A stretch of DNA of 30,331 nucleotides. Source: Clostridiales bacterium. GTDB taxonomy: Bacteria; Bacillota; Clostridia; Lachnospirales; WQUN01. The number at the start of each line of letters is the position of its first letter. The stretch's first letter is position 1. Where the stretch lies: the NCBI GenBank assembly GCA_031273705.1, contig JAISRJ010000137.1, positions 1-30,331 on the forward strand, read 5' to 3'. Below, one piece after another: positions 4,490 through 20,089 of the stretch. Both the position numbers and the translations under genes were made by a program. A model generated the notes under the pieces. It saw nothing but the letters and a program-made list of their open reading frames with translations. It was not told the DNA's origin and searched no databases.

Positions 4490-4576
4490 ATTAAAACCCT
4501 CTTTACTTTCGTATATTTTGCGCGAGGCACCGTATGGAGTATTAGCTCCGCTGTACCAGCGGTTGAACAGAGATAG

Positions 4577-4604
4577 TTGACGGATGTATTATGTCGATTA
4601 TAAT
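4577..4604 (+). promoter_or_regulatory. SigA-type promoter for uvrC
   Basis: TTGACG-N16-TATAAT, 67 nt upstream of the ATG; RBS GGAGG precedes the ATG. Confidence 0.65.
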
Positions 4605-4671
4605 TACTTTAGCATTAAATATCAACTGGTTAAGGCTGGAATATTTTTGATATTAATTATTCGGAGGAATT

Positions 4672-6525
4672 ATGTTTGACATACAGGAAGAATTAAAAAA
4701 GCTGCCTAAGAAGCCCGGTGTGTACCTAATGAAAGACGCCGACGATAACATTATTTATGTTGGCAAGGCGCTTAATCTTTCCAATCGTGTGCGGCAATAT
4801 TTCCATTCGCCCAACGGACACACCCCCAAAGTGCGGCATATGACCCCACACATAAAAGAGTTTGAATATGTGGTGACAGAGAACGAAGTCGAGGCGCTTA
4901 TTCTGGAGTGCAACCTGATAAAAAAGCACTCTCCAAAATACAACGCCACGCTGAAAGACGACAAATCGTATCCATTCATAAAATTGACTGTCGCCGAACA
5001 ATACCCCAGAGTGTTTCTCGCACGAAAGCACGAAAAAGATAAGGCTAAATATTTCGGACCATACACAAGTTCGACCGCAATTCGCGAATCTCTGGATCTG
5101 ATTCAAAATGTGTGGCCGTTAAGGTCATGCTCACGTCGGCTACCCAGAGATATTGGTAAAGAACGTCCTTGCTTAAACTATCATATTGGAAAATGCAAAG
5201 CCCCTTGCGCCGGAAAAATTGACGAGACTGATTACCGAAAGATTGTTGATGAGGTTATAAAATTTTTGAACGGCAAACAGGATGAAATAAAAAATCGCTT
5301 GACAGACGAAATGCAATCGGCGTCTTTCAACCTAGAGTTTGAACGGGCGGCGGAACTGCGTGACAAAATTGCCGCTCTTAACACACTGTGCGAAAAGCAA
5401 AAAGCGGACAGCGCTTCCGACGACGACCAAGATGTTATCGCCTTCAGCAGAGCGAATGACGAAGCGCTTGTGCAAGTGTTTTTTATCCGCTCGGGAAAAA
5501 TGGTCGGACGTGAACATTACATGCTTAATAGAGTGGAACATCTGATGAGGGAAGAGGTAATGTCCGCCTTTGTAAAGCAATTCTACGCCGAGGCAGCCTA
5601 TATTCCCAAGGAATTGATTGTAGAAATTCAACCGGACGAACCGGAGATTATCGCGAAATGGCTGAGCGCCTTAAAGGGGCAGGGGGTTAGTATCACGGCG
5701 CCCCAAAAGGGAGATAAACTGAAGCTGGTAAAAATGGCTTCAGAAAACGCTTCGTTGGCGTTGTCGTCGTTTGGAGAACATATAAGGCGCGAATTTTTAC
5801 GTACTATCGGCGCAATGAACGAGATAGGGGAGGCATTAGGCATTTCCCACGACTTAAATCGTGTGGAAGCATATGATATTTCCAACACACAAGGTTTTGA
5901 ATCTGTCGGGTCGATGGTGGTATTCGAGCGTGGCAGGGCTAAGAACAGCGACTATCGTAAATTTAAGATTAAGAGCGTAATCGGACCTGACGACTACGCA
6001 AGTATAGAGGAAGTAATTGACAGACGGTTTACGAGATATTTGAAAGAGCTGGAAAACGAAGATATAAAGAACGCCAAGTTTTTAAAACTGCCCGATATTT
6101 TATTCATCGACGGGGGAAAAGGGCAGGTTCACGCGGCGCAAAAGGCTCTAAAGCGGAATAATGTTAATATACCCGTCTGTGGGATGATAAAAGACGATAA
6201 ACACAGGACCAGAGGGCTGTGGTATAACGAACGGGAAATAACGCTGCCCACCGGTTCGGAAGGTTTTAAACTGCTTACCCGCATACAGGATGAAGTTCAC
6301 CGTTTCGCGATAGAGTATCATAGAAAACTGCGGCGGGACACGCAAGTTAAATCTATGCTGGATGATATAAGCGGCATTGGTCCGACACGGAGAAAAGAAC
6401 TAATGCGTCATTTTAAAAGCCTGGAAAATATTCGCAAAGCGGAGATAGACGATCTAATGCAGGTAGAGGGGATGAACCGCCCGTCCTCACAAGCGGTGTA
6501 TGATTTTTTTCGGAGCGGGCTATAA
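4672..6525 (+). CDS. uvrC: Excinuclease ABC subunit C
   Basis: 617 aa: GIY-YIG N-terminus (LPKKPGVYLMKD...IIYVGKALNL), UVR domain (LEFERAAELRD), RNase H-like domain (EAYDISN, IDGGKGQ) and C-terminal HhH (GIGPTRRKELM). Confidence 0.97.
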   Translation: MFDIQEELKKLPKKPGVYLMKDADDNIIYVGKALNLSNRVRQYFHSPNGHTPKVRHMTPHIKEFEYVVTENEVEALILECNLIKKHSPKYNATLKDDKSYPFIKLTVAEQYPRVFLARKHEKDKAKYFGPYTSSTAIRESLDLIQNVWPLRSCSRRLPRDIGKERPCLNYHIGKCKAPCAGKIDETDYRKIVDEVIKFLNGKQDEIKNRLTDEMQSASFNLEFERAAELRDKIAALNTLCEKQKADSASDDDQDVIAFSRANDEALVQVFFIRSGKMVGREHYMLNRVEHLMREEVMSAFVKQFYAEAAYIPKELIVEIQPDEPEIIAKWLSALKGQGVSITAPQKGDKLKLVKMASENASLALSSFGEHIRREFLRTIGAMNEIGEALGISHDLNRVEAYDISNTQGFESVGSMVVFERGRAKNSDYRKFKIKSVIGPDDYASIEEVIDRRFTRYLKELENEDIKNAKFLKLPDILFIDGGKGQVHAAQKALKRNNVNIPVCGMIKDDKHRTRGLWYNEREITLPTGSEGFKLLTRIQDEVHRFAIEYHRKLRRDTQVKSMLDDISGIGPTRRKELMRHFKSLENIRKAEIDDLMQVEGMNRPSSQAVYDFFRSGL

Positions 6526-6599
6526 GGAGCGTATTATACCCGCGAGCGAAATCATTTGCCATCCATACGTTTTTTTAGCACAATACCGCATCAAACGTC

Positions 6600-6643
6600 T
6601 ACTTGCGTACCTTGCGGGTACGCGGCGCGGCCACCTGCAAGTA
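6600..6643. repeat. Nested inverted repeats in the uvrC-MCP intergenic region
   Basis: GCGTACC (6605-6611) / GGTACGC (6617-6623) and TACTTGC (6600-6606) / GCAAGTA (6637-6643). Confidence 0.5.
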
Positions 6644-6739
6644 TAACCATTATTGGAATATCGAATTAATATATCCCAATTAATGAATGATCTGTCTATG
6701 GCGAGGGACACTAGTATTATATTGGAATAGGAGGACTCT

Positions 6740-9052
6740 ATGCTAAAGAACGTAGGAATAAAATTCCGAATAACCGCTATTACACTGGCCATTAATGTGA
6801 TGATTATTACAATTATGATTAGCATGTTCATAATTAGTTTTAAAAAAGCAAATGAAAACAGCAATGAAGAAATGAGGAATAGCCTCTACCAGAGTTTTGA
6901 CGATCTAATTAAATCAGAAGTACAAAATGTTTACTCTCTGTTGGATACTTTTTATCAGAGATATCTGACTGGCGAATTAACCGAAGACGAAGCGCGTTTG
7001 CAAGCGGCAAACACCGTTCGTGAATTGCGATACGCTGATCAAAACTATTTTTGGCTGCATACCCGCGAAGCCTTTTGCATAGTTCTGTATGGTTCCGCTA
7101 AAGAAGGCACAAACAGGTATGAAGAAGTAGACGCTAACGGTTATAAGTTTATGCAAAATCTGGTTACAAGCGCTCAAATTCCGGAAGGAGTCTTTACAGA
7201 TTATTACTTTACAAAGCTGGGCGAAGAGATCCCTCAGCCAAAGCGCGCTTTTAGTTTATTTCATGACGGATTTGGCTGGGAAGTAGGCACCGGTAACTAT
7301 ACCAACGATATTGAAGCTATCGTAATGAAAAAAATAGAGGAATCCAATAGCGCCGCAACAAATATTTTGATGTTAATGATTTCCATATCGATTGTTTTGT
7401 TGGGGCTATCCGCGGGCGCCTCATATATTTTCGCGGGTTCGATGGCTAACCCTATATATAGATTATCAAACGCGGCCAAAATTGTGGCGAAAGGTAACCT
7501 GGACATAGATCGATTGGATTTAATAAAAGACAAGAACGGGTTATTCGGTATTCTTGTAACAAATTTCTTTAAGGTTGTGGATACGTTCAAGTTATTGAGT
7601 ACCGAACTTAATAGAGTATCACACGAACATAATATTGGAGAAACCGAAGCTGTTATAGATGAAGGTTTATTCGCGGGCGCTTATAAAGATGTGGCGTCTG
7701 GGGTAAATGAGATGGTTAAGGCATATGTCATGCAAATGAGAAGTCTGTTGTATTGCCTAAGAAAGTTTGGGTCAGGCAACTTTAATGTAGAGATTCCTCA
7801 GCTGCCCGGTAAAAAAGCCTCGCTTAATCTGGTGCTAGAGGAACTGCGCACAAACCTAAAAGAAATAAACGGAGAAATAGACATACTGGTGCAAAAGGCG
7901 GTGGCCGGCGAATTATCCTCCAGGGCAAATACGAAAAATTTTAAGGGTGATTGGAAAAAAATGTTAGAGGAGCTTAACTCTCTCATGGATTCTATTATTT
8001 CCCCGATAAATGAGGCTGCCGTTGTATTGCGGCATGTTTCGCAAGGTTATTTTGATCTGAAAATTGAGGGCGAATATCAAGGCGATTTTATGCTGATAAA
8101 AAATTCTATAAATGAAACAATAACGAATATCTCTTCATATATAAATGAAATATCAAGTGTTTTAATTGCCATTTCAGAAAATGATTTAACTCGGTCAATA
8201 AACAGAGAATATGTCGGAACATTTGCGCAAATAAAAACAGCCCTTAATAATATAACGGACACATTAAGCGGAATAGTCTCCCATATACAAGATTCCGCGA
8301 GCAGAGTAGCGGATGAGGCCGCTCAAATATCCAAAACCAGTTTAGTACTGGCGGAAGGTTCTTCCAAACAGTCGGCGTCCATACAAGAACTTAACGCGAC
8401 TATAATGGGAATTAACGAGAGTACGAAGGAAAACGCTACAAACACAAAAGAAGCGGAGAATTTGGCGGGGGTTTCCACAAGGGTCGCCTATAAAGGGGAT
8501 CAGAATATGAAAGATATGATCTTGTCAATGGAGAGTATTACAAAATCATCCAAAGATATAGCGAGTATAATAAAGGTTATAGACGATATCGCGTTTCAAA
8601 CTAACCTATTGGCGCTTAACGCCGCCGTTGAGGCAGCCAGAGCGGGAGAGCACGGCAGGGGTTTCTCTGTCGTCGCTGAAGAAGTACGTAACTTGGCGGG
8701 AAAAAGTTCGTCCGCTTCTAAAGAAGTCGCCGATTTGATTGTAGAATCGATAGACAGGGTTGAAGTCGGCTCAAAATCCGCGGATATGACAGCGGAAACG
8801 CTTCATACTATCGCCACGGACGTACAAGGGGTATCTGATTTGATATCGAAGATTACCGAAGCTACGGAAAACCAAGCCCAAGCGCTTAACGAAGTTACCT
8901 TTGGATTAATGCAAATAACCGACGTAGTACATTCTAACTCGTCGGCGTCGCAAGAAGCCGCCGCCGCGGCTCAGCAACTGGCAAGCAGAGCGGAATTATT
9001 AAGAATTTTAGTGGGAAAGTTTAAGTTGGCGATAAAAACAAAGTCAGCGTGA
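6740..9052 (+). CDS. Methyl-accepting chemotaxis protein (TM - Cache sensor - TM - multiple HAMP - MCP signalling domain)
   Basis: 770 aa with two TM segments flanking an sCache_2-like domain (YFWL...D.NG.KF...Y.F.K...K.....GWEVGTG.Y). Signalling hairpin IDDIAFQTNLLALNAAVEAARAGEHGRGFSVVAEEVRNLA. RBS AGGAGG. Confidence 0.95.
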   Translation: MLKNVGIKFRITAITLAINVMIITIMISMFIISFKKANENSNEEMRNSLYQSFDDLIKSEVQNVYSLLDTFYQRYLTGELTEDEARLQAANTVRELRYADQNYFWLHTREAFCIVLYGSAKEGTNRYEEVDANGYKFMQNLVTSAQIPEGVFTDYYFTKLGEEIPQPKRAFSLFHDGFGWEVGTGNYTNDIEAIVMKKIEESNSAATNILMLMISISIVLLGLSAGASYIFAGSMANPIYRLSNAAKIVAKGNLDIDRLDLIKDKNGLFGILVTNFFKVVDTFKLLSTELNRVSHEHNIGETEAVIDEGLFAGAYKDVASGVNEMVKAYVMQMRSLLYCLRKFGSGNFNVEIPQLPGKKASLNLVLEELRTNLKEINGEIDILVQKAVAGELSSRANTKNFKGDWKKMLEELNSLMDSIISPINEAAVVLRHVSQGYFDLKIEGEYQGDFMLIKNSINETITNISSYINEISSVLIAISENDLTRSINREYVGTFAQIKTALNNITDTLSGIVSHIQDSASRVADEAAQISKTSLVLAEGSSKQSASIQELNATIMGINESTKENATNTKEAENLAGVSTRVAYKGDQNMKDMILSMESITKSSKDIASIIKVIDDIAFQTNLLALNAAVEAARAGEHGRGFSVVAEEVRNLAGKSSSASKEVADLIVESIDRVEVGSKSADMTAETLHTIATDVQGVSDLISKITEATENQAQALNEVTFGLMQITDVVHSNSSASQEAAAAAQQLASRAELLRILVGKFKLAIKTKSA

Positions 9053-9073
9053 ATCTATCAATAATACAATTAT

Positions 9074-9100
9074 ACGGGCGATTAGAAGTCGCCCGTTTTT
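9074..9100 (+). terminator. Intrinsic terminator after the MCP gene
   Basis: ACGGGCGA-TTAGAAG-TCGCCCGT followed by a T run. Confidence 0.8.
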
Positions 9101-9121
9101 CAACACTTTTCTTTCTGGCTA

Positions 9122-9150
9122 TTGAAATTTTTGTGTAAAAGGTATATATT
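9122..9150 (+). promoter_or_regulatory. SigA-type promoter for the hprK operon
   Basis: TTGAAA-N17-TATATT, downstream of the MCP terminator. Confidence 0.55.
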
Positions 9151-9204
9151 GTATGCGTATTTACTATCGATTATTCCCAAGTGTAGTTCGAGAGGACTGG
9201 TAGC

Positions 9205-10149
9205 GTGTATCAAGTCGCCTTACATGACCTGATAAAGGAATTCGATTTAAAATTACTATCCGAGAATGTAGATATTTCCAATAAGATTATAACGCACAGC
9301 GACATTAACAGACCCGCGTTGCAGCTTGCGGGGTTCTTTGACTACTTTGACTCGGACCGTCTGCAATTAATTGGTATTGTGGAATATACTTTTTTACAGC
9401 AGCTGGATGTTGATACCCGTTATGAAAACCTGCGTAAGATGTTTGCCTGTAAAATACCATGCTTGGTAATTTCGCGGGGCATGTCGCCCTTTGAAGAAAT
9501 GCTTCGCTTCGCGGATGATTATGACGTGCCTGTTTTGGGCTGTCCGTACAGCACGACGGAATTTATGGGTGAGGTTATACGCTGGCTAAAGGTACAGCTT
9601 GCCAACCGCATTACTCTTCATGGGGTACTGGTGGATATTTACGGCGAAGGCGTTTTGATCATGGGCGAGAGCGGCATAGGCAAGAGCGAAACCGCTTTGG
9701 AGCTGATCCACAGGGGGCATCGGTTCGTCGCCGACGACGCCGTTGAGATAAAGCGCGTCTCATATCAAACCTTGATCGGCAGCGGTCCCGACGTTATTAA
9801 GTATTTTCTGGAACTGCGAGGCATAGGGATTATTAATGTAAAGCACATGTTTGGTGTGGAATCCGTAAAGGCCACCCAGTCAATAGATTTGATCATCAGG
9901 CTGGAGCCATGGGATCAAAACAAGACTTATGACCGTTTCGGATTGCATGAGGAATACATGGATATTTTGGGCAATAAGGTTACTTGTCATTCCATACCCA
10001 TACGACCCAGCCGAAATCTTGCTATTATATGCGAGTCGGCGGCCATTAACCATAGACAGAAAAAAATGGGTTATAACGCGGCTCAAGAGCTAAACGACCG
10101 TGTTATGAACAATATCGCCCATCCAAAGGATTCTTCGGCCACGCGCTAA
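9205..10149 (+). CDS. hprK: HPr(Ser) kinase/phosphatase
   Basis: 314 aa, GTG start. INRPALQLAGFF, HGVLVDIYGEGVLIMGESGIGKSETALELI (Walker A), ADD, LELRGIGII, PIRPSRNLA. Confidence 0.97.
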   Translation: MYQVALHDLIKEFDLKLLSENVDISNKIITHSDINRPALQLAGFFDYFDSDRLQLIGIVEYTFLQQLDVDTRYENLRKMFACKIPCLVISRGMSPFEEMLRFADDYDVPVLGCPYSTTEFMGEVIRWLKVQLANRITLHGVLVDIYGEGVLIMGESGIGKSETALELIHRGHRFVADDAVEIKRVSYQTLIGSGPDVIKYFLELRGIGIINVKHMFGVESVKATQSIDLIIRLEPWDQNKTYDRFGLHEEYMDILGNKVTCHSIPIRPSRNLAIICESAAINHRQKKMGYNAAQELNDRVMNNIAHPKDSSATR

Positions 10150-10185
10150 TGTTTTTATGTATTCCCTCCGATAAAAATAATTAGA

Positions 10186-11151
10186 ATGTGGATAATAGTA
10201 TTGGGGCTGTGTTTTTTGGAACTTCTTGAATCAAAGTTTATCGCGTCAATCGAAAGAGAGGGCATTTTACGACCTCGGCAGCTGCTACTTAACGAACCTC
10301 TAAAACGACATACCACATTTAAAATCGGCGGACCTGCGGACATAATGGCGTTGCCTGAAAATTCTGAACAGATAGCTTTTTTAATAAAAAAGCTAACAGA
10401 GCTGGGCGCAAGATATATGATAATAGGCAACGGAAGTAATCTTTTATTTCCCGATGAAGGATTAAGAGGTGTAATAATCAAAATAGGGGAGAATTTCTCC
10501 GACTTGGAAATAAAAGACAACGTGCTGACCGCGCAATCCGGCAGGCAATTATCCTCGGCGGCGGCGGCGGCTGCCGAGGCGGGGTTATCGGGTATGGAAT
10601 TCGCGTCCGGCATACCGGGGTCGGTCGGCGGAGGGGTTTTTATGAACGCCGGTGCTTACGACGGTGAAATAAAGCATATCTTTGCCGGCGCTGAGGTCAT
10701 GTACCCAAGCGGAGAAATAAGAATTTTATCAAAGCCCGAAATGAACTTTGGATATAGGCATAGTATAGCTATGGATGAAAATCTTGTGATTCTTTCGGCC
10801 ATTTTTAAACTCACGCGGGACGAACGCTCCAACATACAAACTCGGATCAACGTATTGACGCAAAAACGCAGAGAAAAGCAGCCCATCGAAATGCCCAGCG
10901 CGGGCAGTGTATTTAAACGCCCGGAGGGTTACTTCGCCGGTAAACTGATTAGCGACGCGGGATTAAGGGGTTTTATAATCGGCGGCGCGCAAGTCTCCGA
11001 AAAACACGCCGGGTTTATCGTCAATAAAGGCGGCGCGACTTCGGATGATGTGCGACGGTTGATAAACCATATTCAAGTTACCGTTCTAAAACAATTCGGT
11101 GTTTTACTGCAACCGGAGATTAGAATCATAGCCGCGGAAGTAGGAAAATAA
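10186..11151 (+). CDS. murB: UDP-N-acetylenolpyruvoylglucosamine reductase (start uncertain; TTG at 10216 is an alternative)
   Basis: HTTFKIGGPA, GNGSNLL, GIPGSVGGGVFMNAGAY, FGYRHS, QP..MPSAGSVFKRP, VSEKHAGFIVN. The ATG at 10186 has no SD. Confidence 0.95.
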   Translation: MWIIVLGLCFLELLESKFIASIEREGILRPRQLLLNEPLKRHTTFKIGGPADIMALPENSEQIAFLIKKLTELGARYMIIGNGSNLLFPDEGLRGVIIKIGENFSDLEIKDNVLTAQSGRQLSSAAAAAAEAGLSGMEFASGIPGSVGGGVFMNAGAYDGEIKHIFAGAEVMYPSGEIRILSKPEMNFGYRHSIAMDENLVILSAIFKLTRDERSNIQTRINVLTQKRREKQPIEMPSAGSVFKRPEGYFAGKLISDAGLRGFIIGGAQVSEKHAGFIVNKGGATSDDVRRLINHIQVTVLKQFGVLLQPEIRIIAAEVGK

Positions 11152-12050
11152 TGCAATTCTTAATAGTAACAGGGATGTCGGGCGCGGGTAAGAGCACCGT
11201 GTTGAAATTTCTGGAAGACGCGGGTTTCTTTTGTGTGGATAATCTTCCGCCCGCTCTTATCTCCAAATTTGCGGAAGTATGCTCTCTTCCCGGCTCTGAA
11301 ATTAAGCAAGTCGCCTTGGGCATAGACGCCCGTGGCGCGGGTACTATGGTACCAGGTTCGCCGAGTGGTACGTTATTCGAGGAACTCATTTCAGAATTAA
11401 AAAATCTGTCTGTGGATAATTTCCAATATACTATACTGTTCTTAGACGCGTCTGATGAAACATTGGTCAAGAGATACAAGGAAACACGCCATAGCCACCC
11501 TTTGGCTAAAAACGAGAGGGTTATCTTTGGGATAGAAAAAGAGCGTGAGTTTCTGCACAGACTAAAAAAGCAGGCGGATTTTATAGTAGATACCAGTAAT
11601 ACCCTGACAAGACAGTTGAAAGATACGATAAATGAAATTATAATAAAGAATACTACATTCAACAGCCTGATCATTACTGTGTTATCGTTCGGGTTTAAAT
11701 ACGGCATACCGGATGATTCCGATTTGGTATTTGACGTGCGTTTTATGCCCAATCCCTTTTACATCACCGAAATGAGGGAGTTGACCGGCAAGGACGCGCC
11801 TGTGAGGGATTTTGTGATGAAATCCGAAATAAGCCGTCAATTTCATGAAAAACTGCTGGATCTGGTGACTTTTCTAATACCACACTATGTTGATGAAGGA
11901 AAAAATCAGCTGATCATTAGCATTGGCTGCACTGGTGGCAAACACAGATCAGTAACACTGGCCGAGGCGCTCTACAGCGAATTAAAAGAAGATGGTTTCG
12001 CCACACATATCACTCACAGGGATATTGACAAAGACGCGAAACGTTATTAA
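11151..12050 (+). CDS. rapZ: RNase adapter RapZ / YvcJ family P-loop protein
   Basis: 299 aa. IVTGMSGAGKS (Walker A), FCVDNLPP, RHSHPL, SFGFKYGIP, FDVRFMPNP, GCTGGKHRSV. Confidence 0.95.
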   Translation: MQFLIVTGMSGAGKSTVLKFLEDAGFFCVDNLPPALISKFAEVCSLPGSEIKQVALGIDARGAGTMVPGSPSGTLFEELISELKNLSVDNFQYTILFLDASDETLVKRYKETRHSHPLAKNERVIFGIEKEREFLHRLKKQADFIVDTSNTLTRQLKDTINEIIIKNTTFNSLIITVLSFGFKYGIPDDSDLVFDVRFMPNPFYITEMRELTGKDAPVRDFVMKSEISRQFHEKLLDLVTFLIPHYVDEGKNQLIISIGCTGGKHRSVTLAEALYSELKEDGFATHITHRDIDKDAKRY

Positions 12051-12083
12051 TTATATCAGCAAGTATAACTGGCGGGATGGAAT

Positions 12084-12809
12084 ATGTCTTTTTCGTCGGA
12101 AGTAAAGAAAGAATTACTTAGTATTAAACCGACGGCTGAACATTGTATACTGGCGCAGACAATTGCCCGAGAACATTTTGGAAAAAATAAGCTGACTAGA
12201 GCGGGGAAGTTCAGGGTAGGGGAGTCTTTAGAAAAAAACTGCTGTAAACGCGCATATATTCGAGGCGCGTTTATAGAGAGCGGCTCTCTTAACGCACCCG
12301 AAAAGGCTTACCATCTTGAATTTATCAACCCAAATCGCGAATATGTCGATATATTGGTTTACGCAATCGAATTCTTTGATATTCGCGCAAAAGTAACGGA
12401 ACGCAAAGGACATTGGGTTGTATATTTTAAAGAAGGAGAACATGTAGTAGACTTACTTAACATAATGGGCGCTCATAATTCGCTGTTAAATTTTGAGAAC
12501 GCGCGCATTGTAAAAAACATGCGTAACAATGTCAACCGAATTGTTAATTGCGAAACCGCGAATCTCTCAAAAACTGTAACCGCGTCCATAAAACAAATAA
12601 ACGATATAAAAACCATTGCCCGTATAACGGGATTAGGATATCTAAGCACGCAATTAAAAGAGGTAGCGTTAATCCGTTTAAAATATGAAGAAGCCACGTT
12701 AAAGGAGATAGGCGTTATGTTATCACCGCCTGTGGGAAAGTCAGGCGTAAATCACAGATTACGTAAAATCAGCGGAATAGCGGAAAATCTACGAGGAGGA
12801 AAAGTATGA
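12084..12809 (+). CDS. whiA: DNA-binding protein WhiA (unusually short)
   Basis: 241 aa. MSFSSEVKKEL, CCKRAYIRGAF..SGS...PEKAYHLE, NRIVNCETANLSKT, C-terminal HTH TLKEIG...VGKSGVNHRL. Position between rapZ and HPr is typical. Confidence 0.9.
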   Translation: MSFSSEVKKELLSIKPTAEHCILAQTIAREHFGKNKLTRAGKFRVGESLEKNCCKRAYIRGAFIESGSLNAPEKAYHLEFINPNREYVDILVYAIEFFDIRAKVTERKGHWVVYFKEGEHVVDLLNIMGAHNSLLNFENARIVKNMRNNVNRIVNCETANLSKTVTASIKQINDIKTIARITGLGYLSTQLKEVALIRLKYEEATLKEIGVMLSPPVGKSGVNHRLRKISGIAENLRGGKV

Positions 12810-14699: not shown

Positions 14700-15848
14700 C
14701 TATATTTGACGCTTTCTTTGCAAGAAAATCGGAATATCAAACGGTACTTCTTCTATGTCCCTTACAGGGCGCATGTCAACCGGTTTGCGTGAGCGATTTT
14801 CCGGTTTTACTTCCTCGCGTACATCATACGCGGGTTGTTTTTCGACCGGCGGAAAGGGTTCAATATTCTTTAACGGTTTTAATCTTGGTTCGCGCACATC
14901 ATCAAGACCTGTAGCTATAACCGTTACTATAACTTCATCTTTCAGCTCATCGTTAATGGTCGCGCCGAATATAATCTCAGCGTTTTGATCAATAGCGTTG
15001 CGGATAATCTTCGCTGCCATATTAATATCACGCAGCCCAAGAGTAGAATCCCCCGAAAAGCTGATAATAGCGCTCTTTGCCCCGTCAATGGTGGATTCAA
15101 GCAGAGGACTTTTAATTGCCATCTCCGCCGCCATCTCGGTACGGTTTTTACCGCTTGCCCGACCTACGCCCATGTGCGCGATGCCCTTTTCAAACATTAC
15201 AGTCCGCACATCGGCAAAGTCTAAATTAATCAATCCGTCTTTAAGTATCAAGTCGCTTATACCCAACACACCTTGCCTTAAAACTTCATCCGCTTTTTTA
15301 AATGAATCTTGCAATGATGTATCGTCGTCTATTAATTCCACAAGTTTTTCATTGGGAATAATAACCAATGTGTCAACATTCTTTTTTAGTTCGCTGATAC
15401 CTTCCAGCGCGTTTTTCATGCGCGGAACGCCTTCAAATTCAAAGGGTTTTGTAACAACGCCAACTGTCAAAATGCCCATTTCACGCGCTATACCCGCTAT
15501 TATGGGCGCCGCGCCTGTGCCTGTGCCGCCACCCATACCCGCTGTTACAAACAGCATATCCGTATCGGCTATCGCCGAAGCAACGGCGTCACGGGTTTCC
15601 TCCGCGGCACGCTTGCCTATTTCCGGTCTGCCGCCCGCCCCTAACCCTCTGGTTAATTTTTCACCTATTTGTAAGCGTGTGGAAGCCTTGGAACGTTCCA
15701 AGGCTTGTATGTCCGTATTAACAGAGATAAAGTCTATGTACTGAATATTGTCTACAATCATACGGTCCACAGCGTTATTGCCGCCTCCGCCTACCCCGAT
15801 AACTTTAATACGGGCTTTACTGTTTTGCATTACGTCTATGTTGATCAA
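14700..15848 (-). CDS. ftsZ: Cell division protein FtsZ
   Basis: 382 aa, TTG start with GGAGG 7 nt upstream. [34 protein letters not shown] (tubulin signature), INLDFADV, C-terminal core FDIPIFL. Confidence 0.98.
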
Positions 15849-15963: not shown

Positions 15964-16695
15964 CTAAGTCAGCGCTTTGAATATATAGCTTCGCTTTATT
16001 TCTCTAATGTCCAAAACCCCCTTAACGGTCTCCGCGTCAGGCAGATTAAAGAATATTTCTTTAACTGTGCGTAACTTTTCATCCCCATTACTGACAGAGC
16101 CGATAGCTACATCCACATTATAGATATGTATATGAATATCCTTTAGTTCCGAAACATCGATCTTCTTAATAAAAAGATCCGCAAACTCATACTTTTGGAA
16201 CCATTTTAATAACATTACAATCACTTCAAAGGCTTCGGGGTTATCCGTCCGCAAAACCTGTCCAGTATTAAAGCTACTGAATTCCAGTCCTTCGATAATC
16301 GGCAGAGCTTCGTCGATACTATCGGCGGTTTTAATAACTTTTCCGTCGCGATCTACGCAAAGATATGAGTTAATATAAGGCACATATCCGCTTAAAACAA
16401 TTTCATCTAAACTTACTCTTACAATATTTGGGAATCGTTTCTGGATAGATACACTCTCTATATGAGGGTTATTGTTTAAAATCTGTTTCGCGCGCGTTAA
16501 ATTAAGCAGCAAGATATTACGCGGCTGTGAAAGCCCCAAAGATTCCACTACGGTTTCTCTTTCAATATGTACATTGCCCACCAAAACCAAATCCGATTCC
16601 GTTACCAAAAAATAAGGAGAAAACACTGTTATCAGCAGCCCCGCGGCCAAAGCGCAGCCTATAAGCGTTATTCTATAACGTAAACTCAAGCCCAT
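15964..16695 (-). CDS. ftsQ: Cell division protein FtsQ/DivIB
   Basis: 243 aa: one N-terminal TM, POTRA-like domain (V.GN.HI...NILLL...NPHIESVSIQKRFPN.VRV), then YLCVDRDGKV and C-terminal G.LDIR. Lies directly upstream of ftsZ. Confidence 0.8.
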   Translation of the reverse strand: MGLSLRYRITLIGCALAAGLLITVFSPYFLVTESDLVLVGNVHIERETVVESLGLSQPRNILLLNLTRAKQILNNNPHIESVSIQKRFPNIVRVSLDEIVLSGYVPYINSYLCVDRDGKVIKTADSIDEALPIIEGLEFSSFNTGQVLRTDNPEAFEVIVMLLKWFQKYEFADLFIKKIDVSELKDIHIHIYNVDVAIGSVSNGDEKLRTVKEIFFNLPDAETVKGVLDIREIKRSYIFKALT

Positions 16696-16767
16696 GCATC
16701 CTCCATTAAATTTAAAAGACAGCCTTGTATATGATTAAGATGATTCGTTTGTAATTATGTTAATTAT

Positions 16768-16796
16768 ATCATACATTCTCTTTTGCACAATGTCAA
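16768..16796 (-). promoter_or_regulatory. SigA-type promoter for ftsQ-ftsZ
   Basis: Minus strand TTGACA (16796-16791)-N17-TATGAT (16773-16768). Confidence 0.65.
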
Positions 16797-16961
16797 CTTC
16801 CGTATCTTTATATTGCAGTTCGTATTGCAACACTTGGCTGCTGTGCTTTTTATTATCAATCAAAACGCGAATTTGCGCAATCATTTTAGGTCTACATTTT
16901 TTTATGTATTTTGCGACGCTTGGGCTCGATTACGACAAAGGCCAGCAAAAGATAAAATAAT

Positions 16962-16981
16962 TTCATATTTGTTCATATTTG
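16962..16981. repeat. 2 x 10-bp direct repeat TTCATATTTG
   Basis: Exact copies at 16962-16971 and 16972-16981, in the divergent promoter region. Confidence 0.8.
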
Positions 16982-17023
16982 AATAAAATCCCAATTTTGC
17001 CATTACATAACATCCATCATGAC

Positions 17024-17053
17024 TTGACAAGAATCGCCACAATACATTATACT
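17024..17053 (+). promoter_or_regulatory. SigA-type promoter for the CpaE-like gene
   Basis: TTGACA-N18-TATACT; RBS GAGGAGG before the ATG at 17103. Confidence 0.6.
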
Positions 17054-17102
17054 ACAGTAGTAGGGGTTTATCTAAATATGCACACGCATTGAGGAGGCTG
17101 AC

Positions 17103-18296
17103 ATGGAGAAGATAAATATTCTTATCGCTGATTTAGACATCCATTACACTTCTAATCTTGAGCGTTTTCTTCGCAAAAACTACGCCGATAAATTCAATAT
17201 ATGCGTAAAAAATTCCATCGACGAAATTCTTAAATTCGTTAATACCTCCCCTTTAAAATTAGATATACTGCTTGCGTCTCCTGAATTGTTGACAGAAGTC
17301 ACCCTAAAATTCGCGGAGCTTACGTTGGTGTTATCCGCCGGACTTATACCTATTCAATTGGAAAAATATCACACGGTAAAGAAATTACAGGACGGCGACA
17401 GCATTGTTAAAACAGTTTTGCAAGAATATAATGAGGTTATAAAAAACAGGAGTGTCTTTTCTAATCCGCACATGCCGGCCAAGGAAAAAAATATACCTAA
17501 AACGGTGAGTAAACGAGAAATTATAAATTCCAGCTATGTGCAGAAAATTCAAGAAATCGCTAATAGCGAGCCAACCGGAGAACCATCCAAAACCGTTAAT
17601 ATTTTAGGAGTATTTTCACCGGTCGGCGGAAGCGGTAAAACAACTATAGCAGCGCTGTTATCCCGTTTTTTCGCGGCAAACAAACCTACTCTGTTTTTTT
17701 CTCTGGAGCAATTACAATTTAGCGAACAAATTTTTAGCGGCGTTTCAAAATACAATCTTTCTGATTTCTTACAAGTAATACATAAACCGGATAAAGAAGT
17801 CATTGCCTATTTAGATAAGATACTTATTCACGATGCTCGGCTGGATGTAGATTTTATAAACAGCCCGCTTTCGTTTGCGGATTTGAACGTTATAAAACCT
17901 GAGATGTGGGAAAAACTTTTCAGGGCTTTAAGGTCATCTAAGCAATTTGAATACATCGTTGTGGATATGGGCGGACATATCAGCGACAAAAATCTGCGCG
18001 TTATGGAACTTTGCGATAAGATCATTGTGCCGGTAGTAGATGACAGATCTTCATTAATAAAAGTAAACCGTTTGATTCATGATCTTGCTCAGTTAAATAA
18101 CAAATCATTGCTTAATAGATTCCTTTACATTCAAAATAAATACAGAGGTTACCAACCTCATCAAGAGATTGAGATTTTTAGAAAACTGTCCTTTGAGGAA
18201 ACAAACGCCATAATGGATATCGGCGGCGAGGAAATCCTTCAAAGACCTATATGGCAAGATATCAGCAAATTGGGGGATATGTTATTAAGAAACTGA
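17103..18296 (+). CDS. CpaE/TadZ-like protein: N-terminal pseudo-receiver domain plus MinD/ParA-family ATPase
   Basis: 397 aa. Receiver-like start ILIADLD with no phosphoacceptor Asp (DILLASP). Walker A GVFSPVGGSGKTT lacks the ParA signature Lys. Walker B-like YIVVDMG. Confidence 0.75.
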   Translation: MEKINILIADLDIHYTSNLERFLRKNYADKFNICVKNSIDEILKFVNTSPLKLDILLASPELLTEVTLKFAELTLVLSAGLIPIQLEKYHTVKKLQDGDSIVKTVLQEYNEVIKNRSVFSNPHMPAKEKNIPKTVSKREIINSSYVQKIQEIANSEPTGEPSKTVNILGVFSPVGGSGKTTIAALLSRFFAANKPTLFFSLEQLQFSEQIFSGVSKYNLSDFLQVIHKPDKEVIAYLDKILIHDARLDVDFINSPLSFADLNVIKPEMWEKLFRALRSSKQFEYIVVDMGGHISDKNLRVMELCDKIIVPVVDDRSSLIKVNRLIHDLAQLNNKSLLNRFLYIQNKYRGYQPHQEIEIFRKLSFEETNAIMDIGGEEILQRPIWQDISKLGDMLLRN

Positions 18297-18310
18297 TGGA
18301 GGCGCTGCCT

Positions 18311-19708
18311 ATGTATGATATAAAGGCTTCTCAGCGAGTGGATCTTTCGGGCGCGTATTTGGTGATTGCGCTTAAAGGCACCCCGTTAATCACTTATCAA
18401 GAGGATATGTTGAAAGAGAATAAACTAAATGGATACTTAGATGTTAATTCCAAATATGAGCGCGGCGGATACAATATATATTATAAAATCAACGATTACA
18501 AGCCGCTATCCAAGGCTTTGCAAAAATATCTGCCGCTTAGCGATTTTTGGAAAATTGTAGATTCGATTTTAGACGCTATGATAGATCGCGATAAATATTT
18601 CTTGTCGGAGAACTCCTTGATCTTACATCAAGACTACATTTTCATGCGAAATACCAGCGACATAAAGTTTGTTTATCTACCCACGAAAATTATGGAGGAC
18701 GCGAACGATACGTTAAAGAAGTTAATTTCATGGTTGCTTGAGAAGTTAGATATTCGTTTTCTTAGCGTGGCTTCTCCTGTGGAGGAGACGCTGAACAAAA
18801 CATACATTGCTCCTATGCAATTAAAAGACGAGATTAAAAAGCTTCGAGAGAATTTTGTGGACAATACTACATTATTATCCCAAATGGTTGTAGAAACGTT
18901 AGCGGAGCGGCAAGAGCAAGATATCGTTTCCCCCACCGAAAAAGATACTCTTTCCTCGAAAAACACAGCTCCCTCATTTAAAAAAAATTCGTATATTTAC
19001 ACAGAGAACAACACCTCTAGTCATTCAAGATATAATACATTCAGCGGCACGGATGAATTCACTATTCCTCCCGCCGGAAAGAATGTATTTGTTCCCGATG
19101 AAAGAAACACGTCCGCTTCTATTAAAAATCAATCGATATTCTCTATATTATCTTCCAGAAGTCAAAATGAAAATAGCCCCGAGACTAAATCAAACAGTCC
19201 CGCCGTGGATCTGACAACCGCCGTAGATACTGAAATCCGTGACGCGACTACAGCCCCGTTATATAAAAAATCCCCGTCCGAAACCCAACCTGCCCAACAT
19301 TATTATACTGCCCCGCCGCAAACGCCTCAGTCCGATCCACCTCAAACTGCCCAGCCGATAGACGTCACTCCCCTCACCTCACCTACACAGCTAAAATCAA
19401 AAAACGCTGTTCTTATCCCAAAGAACGCGGCAAACACCACGTCTGTTTGCATAGACAAACCCAGCTTTACGGTCGGTTGGCTGGAACATTCAGATTTAGT
19501 AATCTTTGAATTTGGGATAGACCGTTCCCACGCGGAATTTACTTTTGATGGAGTTAATTTGCGTCTAATAGATAAAAATTCTAAAGCAGGTACATATGTA
19601 AACGGTGATCGATTAAAAGCCAATGCACCGACGACTATAAAAGACGGCGACATAATCGCGTTTTATAATTCGGAATATACTTTAAAGATAAGCGACAGAA
19701 ACGATTAA
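18311..19708 (+). CDS. DUF6382 (kinase-like, probably inactive) plus Ser/Thr/Pro-rich linker plus degenerate FHA domain
   Basis: Start re-called to ATG 18311 (GGAGG at 18298-18302), giving 465 aa. N-terminus YQEDMLKENKLNGYL...IYYKI...LIL..DYIF...FVYLP matches DUF6382 as I recall it. C-terminal FHA fold (D.VI...I.RSHA.F...L.D.NS..GTYVNG.RL...I.DGD.I.F). Confidence 0.7.
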   Translation: MYDIKASQRVDLSGAYLVIALKGTPLITYQEDMLKENKLNGYLDVNSKYERGGYNIYYKINDYKPLSKALQKYLPLSDFWKIVDSILDAMIDRDKYFLSENSLILHQDYIFMRNTSDIKFVYLPTKIMEDANDTLKKLISWLLEKLDIRFLSVASPVEETLNKTYIAPMQLKDEIKKLRENFVDNTTLLSQMVVETLAERQEQDIVSPTEKDTLSSKNTAPSFKKNSYIYTENNTSSHSRYNTFSGTDEFTIPPAGKNVFVPDERNTSASIKNQSIFSILSSRSQNENSPETKSNSPAVDLTTAVDTEIRDATTAPLYKKSPSETQPAQHYYTAPPQTPQSDPPQTAQPIDVTPLTSPTQLKSKNAVLIPKNAANTTSVCIDKPSFTVGWLEHSDLVIFEFGIDRSHAEFTFDGVNLRLIDKNSKAGTYVNGDRLKANAPTTIKDGDIIAFYNSEYTLKISDRND

Positions 19709-19723
19709 AGAGTTGACAGTTCG

Positions 19724-19755
19724 GCGTAAACAGTGGATGTGCGTAAACAGTGGAT
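19724..19755. repeat. 2 x 15-bp direct repeat GCGTAAACAGTGGAT (period 17)
   Basis: Exact copies at 19724-19738 and 19741-19755; the second touches the rpsT -35. Confidence 0.9.
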
Positions 19756-19783
19756 TGACTTGCCTTGTCACCTTTGTTATAAT
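19755..19783 (+). promoter_or_regulatory. SigA promoter for rpsT
   Basis: TTGACT-N17-TATAAT with an extended -10 TG. Confidence 0.8.
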
Positions 19784-19825
19784 AACGTCTGGTTATGAAA
19801 CGTCTAGTTATTAGGAGGTGAAACG

Positions 19826-20089
19826 TTGGCAAATATTAAATCCGCTAAAAAGCGAATTAAGGTTATTCAAAAAAAGACACTGCGTAACCGCATTGTAAAA
19901 TCCAGCACCAAGACCGCCGTTAAGAAAGTAAGAGCCGCTCTTGCTCAAGGTGATAAATCCAATACCGAGGAAGCTTTCCGCAATGCCGTGTCGGCTATCG
20001 ATAAAGCGGTGTCTAAGGGTGTTTATCACAAAAACACCGCCGCCCGCAAGAAATCACGCCTTGCGAAGCGGATTCACAAAATCGCGTAA
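19826..20089 (+). CDS. rpsT: 30S ribosomal protein S20
   Basis: 87 aa, TTG start with AGGAGGTG. ANIKSAKKRI, KGVYHKNTAARKKSRL. Confidence 0.98.
   Translation: MANIKSAKKRIKVIQKKTLRNRIVKSSTKTAVKKVRAALAQGDKSNTEEAFRNAVSAIDKAVSKGVYHKNTAARKKSRLAKRIHKIA

What the first reader, a model, noticed from the sequence alone, without database searches (positions are those of the whole stretch)
17103..19708. Orphan CpaE/TadZ-like ATPase plus DUF6382-FHA pair with no tad pilus genes, divergent from ftsQ-ftsZ
Seen: a two-gene unit with its own SigA promoter, bounded by ftsQ and rpsT. Each recognisable signalling module looks catalytically degenerate: the receiver lacks the phosphoacceptor Asp, the Walker A lacks the ParA/MinD signature Lys, DUF6382 shows no kinase catalytic motifs, and the FHA lacks its pThr-binding residues. 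Known: in Clostridia these two families normally sit inside tad/Flp loci with CpaF/TadA, TadB/C and pilins, and CpaE/TadZ proteins act as polar localisation factors. Inference: a stand-alone, phosphorylation-independent polarity or scaffolding module, possibly co-opted for division or sporulation-site positioning given the shared control region with ftsQ-ftsZ. This is my best protein-level candidate for an undescribed system here.
Basis: partly seen in the sequence, partly recalled or inferred. Interest (0 to 1): 0.7.

Follow-up and report, generated by a model that had tools for sequence, protein, structure and literature searches.

The report
Gutted Tad pilus operon remnant pair
The two genes are the first-but-one and last genes of a Tad adhesion-pilus operon whose roughly 9 kb core is missing in this uncultured Clostridia genome. 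They are a predicted binding pair left over from a known machine, not a new cell-division system.

Summary
Gene A (17103-18296) is a TadZ/CpaE-type atypical-receiver plus ParA/MinD ATPase. Gene B (true start 18311, to 19708) is DUF6382, a disordered linker and FHA. They sit between ftsQ and rpsT behind a strong promoter match, and no Tad core gene was found in the 79.6%-complete MAG.

In every informative relative the orthologues bracket a complete Tad operon: A24-tadZ-cpaF-tadB-tadC-flp-flp-x-tadG-tadE-A24-DUF6382/FHA, with 8.9 kb between the two genes in the same-genus MAG. Here 14 nt separate them, so this is a gutted Tad operon.

Linkage to ftsQ-ftsZ is not conserved. The degenerate receiver, the Walker A without the signature Lys and the motif-less DUF6382 are family-typical. 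Only the loss of the FHA phosphothreonine-binding Arg and Ser is specific to this lineage.

New here:
- DUF6382 models as a protein-kinase-like (pseudokinase) fold.
- A co-fold supports its docking on the TadZ receiver domain (ipSAE 0.73, best control 0.28).

Both ORFs are intact, and TadZ sits on a long branch. The pair may survive as a complex, perhaps serving the genome's type VII secretion system.

The scan has noted similar detached pairs in other genomes (e1-4253299).

The parts
17024..17053 (+). Sigma-70-type promoter match TTGACA-18-TATACT upstream of gene A
   Evidence: 11 of 12 positions. Sequence read. A consensus match only; no expression data.
17091..17097 (+). Shine-Dalgarno GAGGAGG of gene A
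   Evidence: It lies 5 nt before ATG 17103.
17103..18296 (+). Gene A: TadZ/CpaE-type protein, 397 aa (P0001)
   Evidence: It is 46% identical to the Tad-operon TadZ of G001, G005 and G021. It falls inside their clade in the tree.
17103..17447 (+). Atypical receiver domain (res 1-115). Ser59 occupies the phospho-acceptor position. It is the predicted docking surface for DUF6382 (res 12-26, 79, 94-99).
   Evidence: PF21194 at 21.3 bits. Aligned to 3fkq residues 21-137. Interface.
17448..17573 (+). Inter-domain linker with an insertion of about 39 residues found only in this genome's copy
   Evidence: Alignment of TadZ orthologues.
17580..18293 (+). ParA/MinD-type ATPase domain. Walker A SPVGGSGKTT lies at 17616-17645 and the Walker B-like VVDMGG is kept.
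   Evidence: These motifs are invariant among the four orthologues.
18297..18310 (+). 14-nt spacer with GGAGG (18298-18302). This is the junction where relatives carry about 8.9 kb of cpaF-tadB-tadC-flp-tadG-tadE-A24.
   Evidence: compared with L054 coordinates 2846 to 11730.
18311..19708 (+). Gene B: DUF6382 pseudokinase, disordered linker and FHA, 465 aa (P0006). The longer ORF from 18251 is probably not used.
18311..18859 (+). DUF6382 domain (res 21-203 of P0002): protein-kinase-like fold without catalytic motifs
   Evidence: AF2 pLDDT is about 90. All top 50 VIA matches are kinases or pseudokinases, Z 11.6-13.5. No HRD or DFG motif is conserved.
18923..19396 (+). Ser/Thr/Pro-rich disordered linker, longer than in orthologues
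   Evidence: pLDDT under 50. Composition. Alignment.
19397..19705 (+). FHA domain with pThr-binding Arg changed to Trp410 (19478-19480), Ser to Asp424 (19520-19522) and Asn to Ala446 (19586-19588)
   Evidence: FHA folds, Z 13-18. All 14 relatives keep G-R/K and S-R/K-x-H.

Best explanation
The pair is what remains of a Tad (type IVc) pilus operon.

In relatives the operon reads A24 peptidase, tadZ, cpaF, tadB, tadC, two flp pilins, an unknown gene, tadG, tadE, A24 peptidase and DUF6382-FHA. In this lineage the upstream peptidase gene and the roughly 9 kb core between tadZ and the last gene are gone. tadZ and DUF6382-FHA now abut, with a 14-nt spacer, behind their own promoter match next to ftsQ.

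How the pair most likely works in intact systems (inferred):
- TadZ is a ParA/MinD-like ATPase that dimerises on ATP. Its atypical receiver domain is a protein-binding surface.
- The DUF6382 domain is a pseudokinase that docks on that receiver domain.
- The FHA domain reads a phosphothreonine mark, tying pilus assembly to Ser/Thr phosphorylation.

In this genome the docking surfaces are kept. The FHA has lost its pThr-binding Arg and Ser, TadZ has diverged faster than housekeeping proteins, and both linkers have grown. Both ORFs are nevertheless intact.

I read this as a remnant complex under altered but not absent selection. It has no pilus to serve. If it still has a job, the genome's type VII secretion system is the likeliest client.
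For: Origin, shown:
- G001 (same genus by the tool's label) has the full operon, with the orthologues of gene A at L054 1758-2846 and of gene B at 11730-12806.
- tadZ-cpaF adjacency, or an A24-DUF6382/FHA 3' end, recurs in G005, G021, G050, G028, a Lachnospiraceae MAG, 8 metagenome contigs and L101.
- P0001 falls inside that TadZ clade (support 93/98).

Loss, shown for the recovered 79.6%:
- tblastn with all 13 G001 operon proteins finds only the two window genes, plus one weak A24 hit.
- The only T2SSE and T2SSF genes are PilB (with an MshEN domain) and PilC.
- There is no TadE match.
- There is one DUF6382 gene.

Lineage-specific change:
- The FHA Arg-to-Trp and Ser-to-Asp changes occur only here among 15 sequences.
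- The TadZ three-taxon branch is 0.59, against 0.33 and 0.31. For FtsZ the figures are 0.10 against 0.23 and 0.15.
- The terminal branch in the tree is 0.98 against 0.51.

Binding, predicted:
- ipSAE is 0.73 (runs 0.73, 0.73, 0.75) and the best of 3 controls is 0.28. That mark was reached by 58 of 80 solved complexes and 2 of 110 mismatched pairs.
- The runs agree in at least 38% of contacts and the partner's pLDDT is at least 71.
- Replacing the DUF6382 chain gives 0.00.
- 12 of 16 DUF6382 interface residues are invariant, against 52 of 205 in the domain (p = 2e-5).

Fold.
Against: - The MAG is 79.6% complete. Contig C95, which carries the orthologues of the two genes upstream of the G001 tad locus, ends exactly where that locus would begin. 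A short A24 peptidase gene also sits at the edge of C193. A tad core elsewhere is therefore not excluded.
- No reads could be laid on the junction, so a mis-join is not formally excluded.
- The rate comparison rests on three housekeeping proteins. RpsT does not show the contrast.
- The interface-conservation test is not independent of the predictor, which saw the same alignments.
- No relative closer than 47% identity exists in the databases searched. Selection on this branch cannot be measured and the time of the deletion is unknown.
Confidence: 0.7

Rival explanations
1. Split locus. The Tad core genes are present in the unrecovered fifth of the genome and the pair still serves a pilus from a distance.
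For: - Completeness is 79.6% in 343 contigs.
- C95 ends just where the G001 tad locus begins.
- An A24 peptidase gene at the C193 contig edge is the last gene of an operon that runs off the contig.
Against: - In all relatives examined the core lies between these two genes. A split would need the core excised as a block.
- The C193 peptidase is only 30% identical over 69 residues to G001 A24_2. Orthologues in other genera reach 37-39% over the full length.
- It could equally serve the PilB/PilC system on C128.
- The FHA has lost residues that all pilus-linked relatives keep.
Confidence: 0.12
2. Co-option by type VII secretion. After loss of the pilus the pair is kept because it works with the genome's T7SS, as TsfV (TadZ-like ARD ATPase) and TsfJ/TseJ (DUF6382-FHA) are proposed to do in T7SSf and T7SSe.
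For: - Garrett et al. 2024 (PMC11217815) list DUF6382-FHA and a TadZ-like-ARD ATPase as T7SSe/f components.
- This genome has an EssC with an FHA domain, a Ser/Thr kinase, a PP2C, FHA proteins and three WXG100 genes on C119 and C279, and no DUF6382 gene there.
- Both ORFs remain intact despite a long TadZ branch.
Against: - By sequence the pair is Tad-derived, not T7SS-derived.
- G021 has both a Tad locus and an EssC with only the Tad-linked DUF6382 gene. G001 and G005 have the gene without any EssC. The gene therefore tracks Tad in this clade.
- The FHA here cannot read the marks that the T7SS kinase would write.
- No test of contact with EssC was run.
Confidence: 0.13
3. One reading: a stand-alone polarity module co-opted for division or sporulation-site positioning, sharing a control region with ftsQ-ftsZ.
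For: - The pair is divergent from ftsQ across 407 bp.
- In G021 the tad 3' end lies 3 kb upstream of ftsQ-ftsZ.
- TadZ belongs to the ParA/MinD superfamily.
- An earlier scan note (e1-4253299) reports another detached pair beside ftsZ in a different genome.
Against: - The linkage is not found in G001 or G005.
- It is not found in 17 further loci of the order.
- Where it exists, the orientation differs.
- Nothing ties the proteins to FtsZ except position.
Confidence: 0.04
4. Assembly artefact. The join between gene A and gene B is a mis-assembly of a metagenome bin.
For: This is a MAG from short-read assembly, and no reads could be inspected.
Against: - The junction is a clean stop, 14 nt with GGAGG, then ATG.
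- No repeat at the junction matches elsewhere in the genome.
- The contig is the longest of the bin, with synteny on the ftsZ side.
- The upstream A24 gene is missing as well, which a single mis-join would not explain.
Confidence: 0.03

Closest known systems
TadZ/CpaE of Tad (Flp, type IVc) pili; solved example Eubacterium rectale TadZ (PDB 3FKQ)
   Same: - The two-domain architecture is the same: an atypical receiver without a phospho-acceptor Asp, plus a ParA/MinD ATPase.
- The Walker A has the form SPxGGxG, without the signature Lys.
- It is orthologous by tree to TadZ genes that sit next to cpaF.
   Different: - There is no cpaF or any other tad gene beside it.
- It has a 39-residue linker insertion.
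- Its terminal branch is 2 to 3 times longer.
- It keeps the canonical GKT Lys that ErTadZ lacks (GTS in 3fkq).
Intact Tad operon of the same-genus MAG (JAISGK010000058.1, locus L054/L068/L102)
   Same: The first-but-one and last genes are the orthologues of genes A and B (46% and 37% identity).
   Different: That operon has 11.7 kb and 12 genes, including cpaF, tadB, tadC, two Flp1-like pilins, tadG, tadE and two A24 peptidases. Here only two genes remain, and the FHA is pThr-blind.
TseJ/TsfJ (DUF6382 + FHA) and TsfV (TadZ-like ARD + ATPase) of T7SSe/T7SSf (Garrett et al. 2024, PMC11217815)
   Same: The same two domain architectures occur together outside a pilus locus. The DUF6382-FHA protein is cytoplasmic like TseJ, with no TM helix.
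   Different: - The pair is not in a T7SS locus.
- By sequence it is nearest to Tad-operon copies.
- TsfJ has two TM helices.
- The paper describes TsfV as an AAA+ ATPase.
Pseudokinase-FHA pairs: EssB/YukC with the EssC FHA domains (PMC9600267, PMC9436818); Rv3910 kinase-homology domain with FhaA (PDB 3UQC, 3OUN)
   Same: A catalytically dead kinase-like domain and an FHA domain act as assembly parts of an envelope machine. 3uqc is among the structural matches (Z 12.1, rmsd 3.0, 176 aligned residues).
   Different: - Here both domains are in one soluble protein.
- The predicted partner of the pseudokinase is a receiver domain, not an FHA domain.
- EssB itself was not among the 50 listed matches.

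Membership tests
TadZ/CpaE | N-terminal atypical receiver domain lacking the phospho-acceptor Asp | tested here: met
   PF21194 scores 21.3 bits, below the 27.4 cut-off. The domain aligns to 3fkq residues 21-137. Ser59 stands at the acceptor position, and orthologues have Ser or Thr there.
TadZ/CpaE | C-terminal ParA/MinD-type ATPase with a variant deviant Walker A | tested here: met
   AAA_31 scores 25.7 and CbiA 24.2 bits, just under cut-off. 3fkq is the best PDB match. Walker A reads SPVGGSGKTT, against SPCGGVGTST in 3fkq.
TadZ/CpaE | Encoded in a tad locus beside cpaF/tadA | tested here: not met
   There is no cpaF in the window or in the recovered genome. The feature is met by all orthologues examined.
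TadZ/CpaE | Groups with bona fide Tad-locus TadZ in a tree | tested here: met
   It forms a clade with the G001, G005, G021 and metagenome TadZ, with support 93/98.
Tad/Flp (type IVc) pilus system | CpaF/TadA motor, TadB/TadC platform, Flp pilin, TadE/G pseudopilins and a dedicated A24 peptidase | tested here: not met
   Only PilB/PilC and one non-orthologous A24 were found. The genome is 79.6% complete, so absence is not proven.
DUF6382-FHA proteins (TseJ/TsfJ type) | N-terminal DUF6382 and C-terminal FHA | tested here: met
   DUF6382 scores 78.2 bits (cut-off 26.7) and FHA 50.4 bits (cut-off 20.7).
DUF6382-FHA proteins (TseJ/TsfJ type) | Encoded in a T7SS (essC/WXG100) locus | tested here: not met
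   essC and the WXG100 genes lie on other contigs, C119 and C279.
Canonical FHA (phosphothreonine reader) | Conserved Gly-Arg, Ser-x-x-His and Asn that contact pThr | tested here: not met
   The positions read G-W410, D424-R-S-H427 and A446. The fold is kept (Z 13-18).
Active Hanks-type protein kinase | Catalytic motifs VAIK Lys, HRD and DFG | tested here: not met
   The fold is kinase-like. The family conserves only L, Y-x-P and YQxxMxxxN. YLP stands where DFG would be.
MinD (division-site ParA) | Signature Lys of the deviant Walker A (KGGxGK[ST]) | tested here: not met
   Val174 stands at that position. The MinD models score 23-25 bits against cut-offs of 213-508.

The most novel reading that the evidence does not exclude
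The TadZ-type ATPase and the DUF6382 pseudokinase-FHA protein form a self-sufficient, portable organiser complex held together by a receiver-domain/pseudokinase contact. Clostridia would attach this complex to different envelope ATPase machines, the Tad pili and the T7SS. Here it has outlived its pilus because it now serves another machine, such as the genome's T7SS, in a phosphorylation-independent way.
Probability: 0.2. Interest if true: 0.65.

Novelty: new variant of a known kind. Interest (0 to 1): 0.38.

Why it matters
On its own this is reductive evolution of a known machine, not a new system. Two points are worth keeping.

1. It gives DUF6382, a domain of unknown function, a concrete and testable role. 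The domain occurs in many Clostridia Tad loci and in the newly described T7SSe/f systems. The proposed role is a pseudokinase that docks on the atypical receiver domain of TadZ-like ATPases. That would also explain what the long-puzzling "stripped-down" TadZ receiver domain binds in monoderms.

2. The genome is a natural experiment. Exactly the two predicted partners were kept intact while everything between them was lost. This argues that the pair is a functional unit and points to the interface residues worth mutating.

Tried and rejected
- Sequencing runs holding 16700-19800: none was listed, and no RNA holder was listed. The junction could not be checked with reads and expression could not be assessed.
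- Metagenome scan with P0001 alone: no relative found. The scan with the TadZ alignment found 8 loci, all A24-tadZ-cpaF and none closer than 44%.
The 4-sequence alignment found only the known relatives plus one Lachnospiraceae MAG.
- Search for a closer relative, to measure selection or find a second orphan pair: the nearest DUF6382 domain among 1.8 billion representatives is 47% identical. The word-index search found 3 proteins. P0010 and P0012 turned out to be ordinary Tad contexts.
- Remnant of the upstream A24 peptidase gene in the 407-bp ftsQ-tadZ spacer: a profile search of all six frames gave 1.8 bits, which is nothing.
- Small ORFs in that spacer (67 aa twice): no support as genes.
- Foldseek on the full-length model returned only FHA matches, so the domain had to be modelled alone.
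- EssB/YukC did not appear among the 50 listed structural matches of DUF6382. That does not exclude a relationship.
- Look-up of earlier scan notes by the sequence of P0001: nothing.
- The idea that the 289-295 aa gene before DUF6382-FHA in G005 and G021 is a TadZ: no similarity. It is a different Tad-locus gene.
Full report
**What is there**

The window is contig C277 of a metagenome-assembled genome of 2.17 Mb in 343 contigs, 79.6% complete. Two co-oriented ORFs lie between ftsQ (15964-16695, minus strand) and rpsT (19826-20089, plus strand).

Gene A (17103-18296, 397 aa):
- It scores just below the Pfam cut-offs for TadZ-like_ARD, AAA_31 and CbiA.
- Its best solved relative is Eubacterium rectale TadZ (3fkq), aligned over both domains.

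Gene B carries DUF6382 (78 bits) and FHA (50 bits). Alignment with its orthologues and with the database copy of the same protein (465 aa) puts its start at ATG 18311, behind GGAGG. The genes are therefore separated by 14 nt and do not overlap.

A promoter match of 11 out of 12 positions (17024-17053) and a GAGGAGG ribosome-binding site precede gene A. Neither protein has a hydrophobic segment long enough for a membrane helix.

**The four "degenerate" features**

Three are properties of the families, not of this copy.
- The receiver domain has Ser59 where a response regulator has its phospho-acceptor Asp. The orthologues have Ser or Thr there.
- Walker A reads SPVGGSGKTT. The solved TadZ reads SPCGGVGTST, so the missing signature Lys is normal for these TadZ proteins. 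This copy even keeps the canonical GKT.
- DUF6382 has no conserved kinase motif in any member.

The fourth is specific to this copy. The FHA reads G-W, D-R-S-H and S-K-A-G-T. All 14 relatives aligned keep G-R/K and S-R/K-x-H.

**Where the pair comes from**

In the MAG that the tool labels as the same genus (G001; record JAISGK010000058.1, "Clostridiales bacterium"), the orthologues sit 8.9 kb apart on one strand. Between and around them lies a complete Tad operon, in this order:
1. A24 peptidase
2. tadZ
3. cpaF
4. tadB
5. tadC
6. two Flp1-like pilins
7. a 225-aa unknown
8. tadG-like
9. tadE-like
10. A24 peptidase
11. DUF6382-FHA

The same layout, or the half of it that a contig holds, is seen elsewhere:
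- in G005 and G021, another genus of the family;
- in G050, G028, G041, G053 and G052 of the order;
- in a Lachnospiraceae MAG;
- in eight metagenome contigs, all A24-tadZ-cpaF;
- in contig L101, which has A24 followed by DUF6382-FHA.

In a tree, P0001 falls inside the clade of these Tad-operon TadZ proteins with support 93/98. The intact operon is therefore the ancestral state, and the abutting pair is derived.

**Is the core really gone?**

- tblastn of all G001 operon proteins against the whole recovered genome finds only the two window genes and one weak peptidase hit.
- Family searches find a single T2SSE ATPase, which is PilB-like with an MshEN domain and sits next to a two-domain PilC.
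- There is no TadE match.
- There is one A24 peptidase, at the edge of contig C193.
- There is one DUF6382 gene.

Three caveats apply. A fifth of the genome is missing. Contig C95 carries the orthologues of the two genes that precede the G001 tad locus, and it ends exactly where that locus would begin. No reads were available to check the junction. I put a split locus at about 12% and a mis-join at about 3%.

**Linkage to ftsQ-ftsZ**

On the ftsZ side synteny is conserved (CNNM transporter, ftsZ, ftsQ). The region upstream of ftsQ is not.
- In G001, ftsQ is on a different contig with no tad gene within reach.
- In G005, the block HI0933-like, FAD-dependent, ftsQ, ftsZ is separate from the tad 3' end.
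- Only G021 has the tad 3' end upstream of that block, and there it is on the same strand as ftsQ, not divergent.
- None of 17 further DUF6382/FHA or TadZ loci of the order has ftsZ or ftsQ within the roughly 8 to 20 kb fetched.

The shared control region is therefore an accident of this genome.

**What DUF6382 is**

The AlphaFold2 models are confident for residues 21-200. The full-length model has pLDDT about 90 in this domain, and the domain-only model has mean pLDDT 86.9 and pTM 0.81.

Every one of the 50 best exhaustive structural matches is a protein kinase or pseudokinase, with Z 11.6-13.5 and 163-194 residues aligned. They include TYK2, JAK2 and IRAK3 pseudokinase domains, S. aureus PknB, and the kinase-homology domain of Rv3910 (3uqc), which is itself an FHA partner.

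With no conserved catalytic motif, DUF6382 is a pseudokinase. The linker (about residues 225-382) is disordered and rich in Ser, Thr and Pro. The FHA fold is intact.

**Do the two proteins bind?**

I co-folded three chains: the DUF6382 domain, the FHA domain and TadZ, with TadZ as the scored partner.
- ipSAE was 0.73 (0.73, 0.73, 0.75) against a best control of 0.28.
- That mark was reached by 58 of 80 solved complexes and 2 of 110 mismatched pairs.
- The runs agree in at least 38% of contacts, and the partner's pLDDT is at least 71.
- Replacing the DUF6382 chain dropped the score to 0.00.
- The counts hold only roughly, because my own four-row alignments were used and the job had three chains.

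No solved complex of this kind is known to me, and the PDB holds no DUF6382 sequence match. Recall from a template is therefore unlikely.

The contact joins two DUF6382 segments to helix 1 and the 94-99 loop of the TadZ receiver domain. The segments are residues 47-57, the family's YQxxMxxxN motif, and residues 114-120, the YxLxE motif. Twelve of 16 DUF6382 contact residues are invariant among the four orthologues, against 52 of 205 in the domain (p = 2e-5). On the receiver side it is 8 of 16 against 39 of 115, which is not significant. This test is not independent of the predictor.

The model supports binding; it does not show it.

**State of the remnant**

TadZ of this genome sits on a long branch.
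- The three-taxon branch length is 0.59 against 0.33 and 0.31. For FtsZ the same lineage has the shortest branch (0.10 against 0.23 and 0.15), and likewise for FtsQ.
- The terminal branch in the tree is 0.98 against 0.51 for G001.
- Every other member of the clade is 54-60% identical to G001 TadZ but only 40-44% identical to P0001.
- The DUF6382-FHA branch is about equal to the others where half would be expected, which is a weaker signal.

Both linkers have grown. Yet both ORFs are open, and the ATP-binding motifs and predicted interface residues are kept.

Inference: that much extra protein change without a single stop or frameshift is hard to reconcile with long neutral decay. Either the deletion is recent, or the pair is still under altered selection.

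**A possible client**

The genome encodes a type VII secretion system on contigs C119 and C279. It comprises:
- a Ser/Thr kinase;
- an SLH protein;
- a small FHA protein;
- an EssC with an FHA domain;
- a LytTR response regulator;
- three WXG100 genes;
- a membrane FHA protein;
- a PP2C.

Garrett et al. 2024 (PMC11217815) list DUF6382-FHA (TseJ/TsfJ) and a TadZ-like-ARD ATPase (TsfV) as components of T7SSe and T7SSf. In the order sampled here, the DUF6382/FHA gene is often followed by PP2C and/or a kinase. This holds both at the end of Tad loci and in one EssC locus.

Co-option by the T7SS is thus conceivable. Against it, in this clade the gene tracks Tad and not EssC: G001 and G005 have the gene and no EssC. 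The FHA here is also pThr-blind. I give it about 13%.

**Earlier notes of this scan**

Other windows have yielded detached TadZ-like/FHA pairs (e1-4253299, read there as T7SS-derived and often beside ftsZ) and Tad loci with FHA/PP2C/kinase cassettes (e1-4327389, e1-4316440). These gave me the T7SS comparison to test. For this genome the sequence evidence points to a Tad origin.

**Verdict**

This is a new variant of a known kind: a Tad operon reduced to its TadZ and pseudokinase-FHA genes. Interest is moderate to low for the locus itself. The predicted receiver-pseudokinase contact is the part worth testing.

Noticed in passing
L012 (G000:C119:1-11153) and L013 (G000:C279:1-5468): The same genome carries a type VII secretion locus, split over two contigs. 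C119 has an 838-aa Ser/Thr kinase, a 748-aa SLH protein, a 136-aa FHA protein and an EssC with an N-terminal FHA domain that runs off the contig. C279 has an ATPase fragment, a LytTR response regulator, three tandem WXG100 genes, a 239-aa membrane FHA protein and a PP2C. There is no DUF6382 gene at this locus.
   Followed up: partly
L099 (G000:C193) 7206-7700, minus strand: A short (164-aa) A24 prepilin peptidase is the last gene of an operon that runs off the contig end. It is convergent with a class II tRNA synthetase gene. It is not orthologous to the Tad-locus peptidases of relatives and may serve the PilB/PilC system on C128.
   Followed up: partly
G000:C95, end of contig (about 5176-6104): The orthologues of the two genes that precede the tad operon in G001 lie at the very end of this contig. 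The genome's equivalent of that site cannot be read.
   Followed up: partly
L005/L063 (G021:C166) and L066 (G005:C201): In genus g5 a block of an HI0933-like flavoprotein, an FAD-dependent protein, ftsQ and ftsZ is conserved. In G021 the Tad operon ends directly upstream of it on the same strand. In G005 it does not.
   Followed up: yes
L054 (G001:C21) 1104-1733 and 11045-11632; 6529-6723 and 6815-7009: The intact Tad operon of the relative carries two A24 peptidase genes, one at each end, and two tandem 64-aa Flp1-like pilin genes.
   Followed up: no
L082-L096 (order-level relatives): The DUF6382/FHA gene is commonly followed by a PP2C phosphatase and/or a Hanks kinase. This is seen at the 3' end of Tad loci and in one EssC-WXG100 locus (L083), which suggests a movable phospho-switch cassette.
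   Followed up: partly
window 18251-18310: The longest ORF of gene B starts 60 nt upstream of the conserved start and overlaps gene A by 46 nt. The extension is not conserved and is modelled as disordered (pLDDT about 40).
   Followed up: yes
window 14998-15744, plus strand: A 248-aa ORF lies antisense to ftsZ. It also gives tblastn matches in relatives, but only because it shadows the conserved ftsZ frame. It is not a gene.
   Followed up: partly
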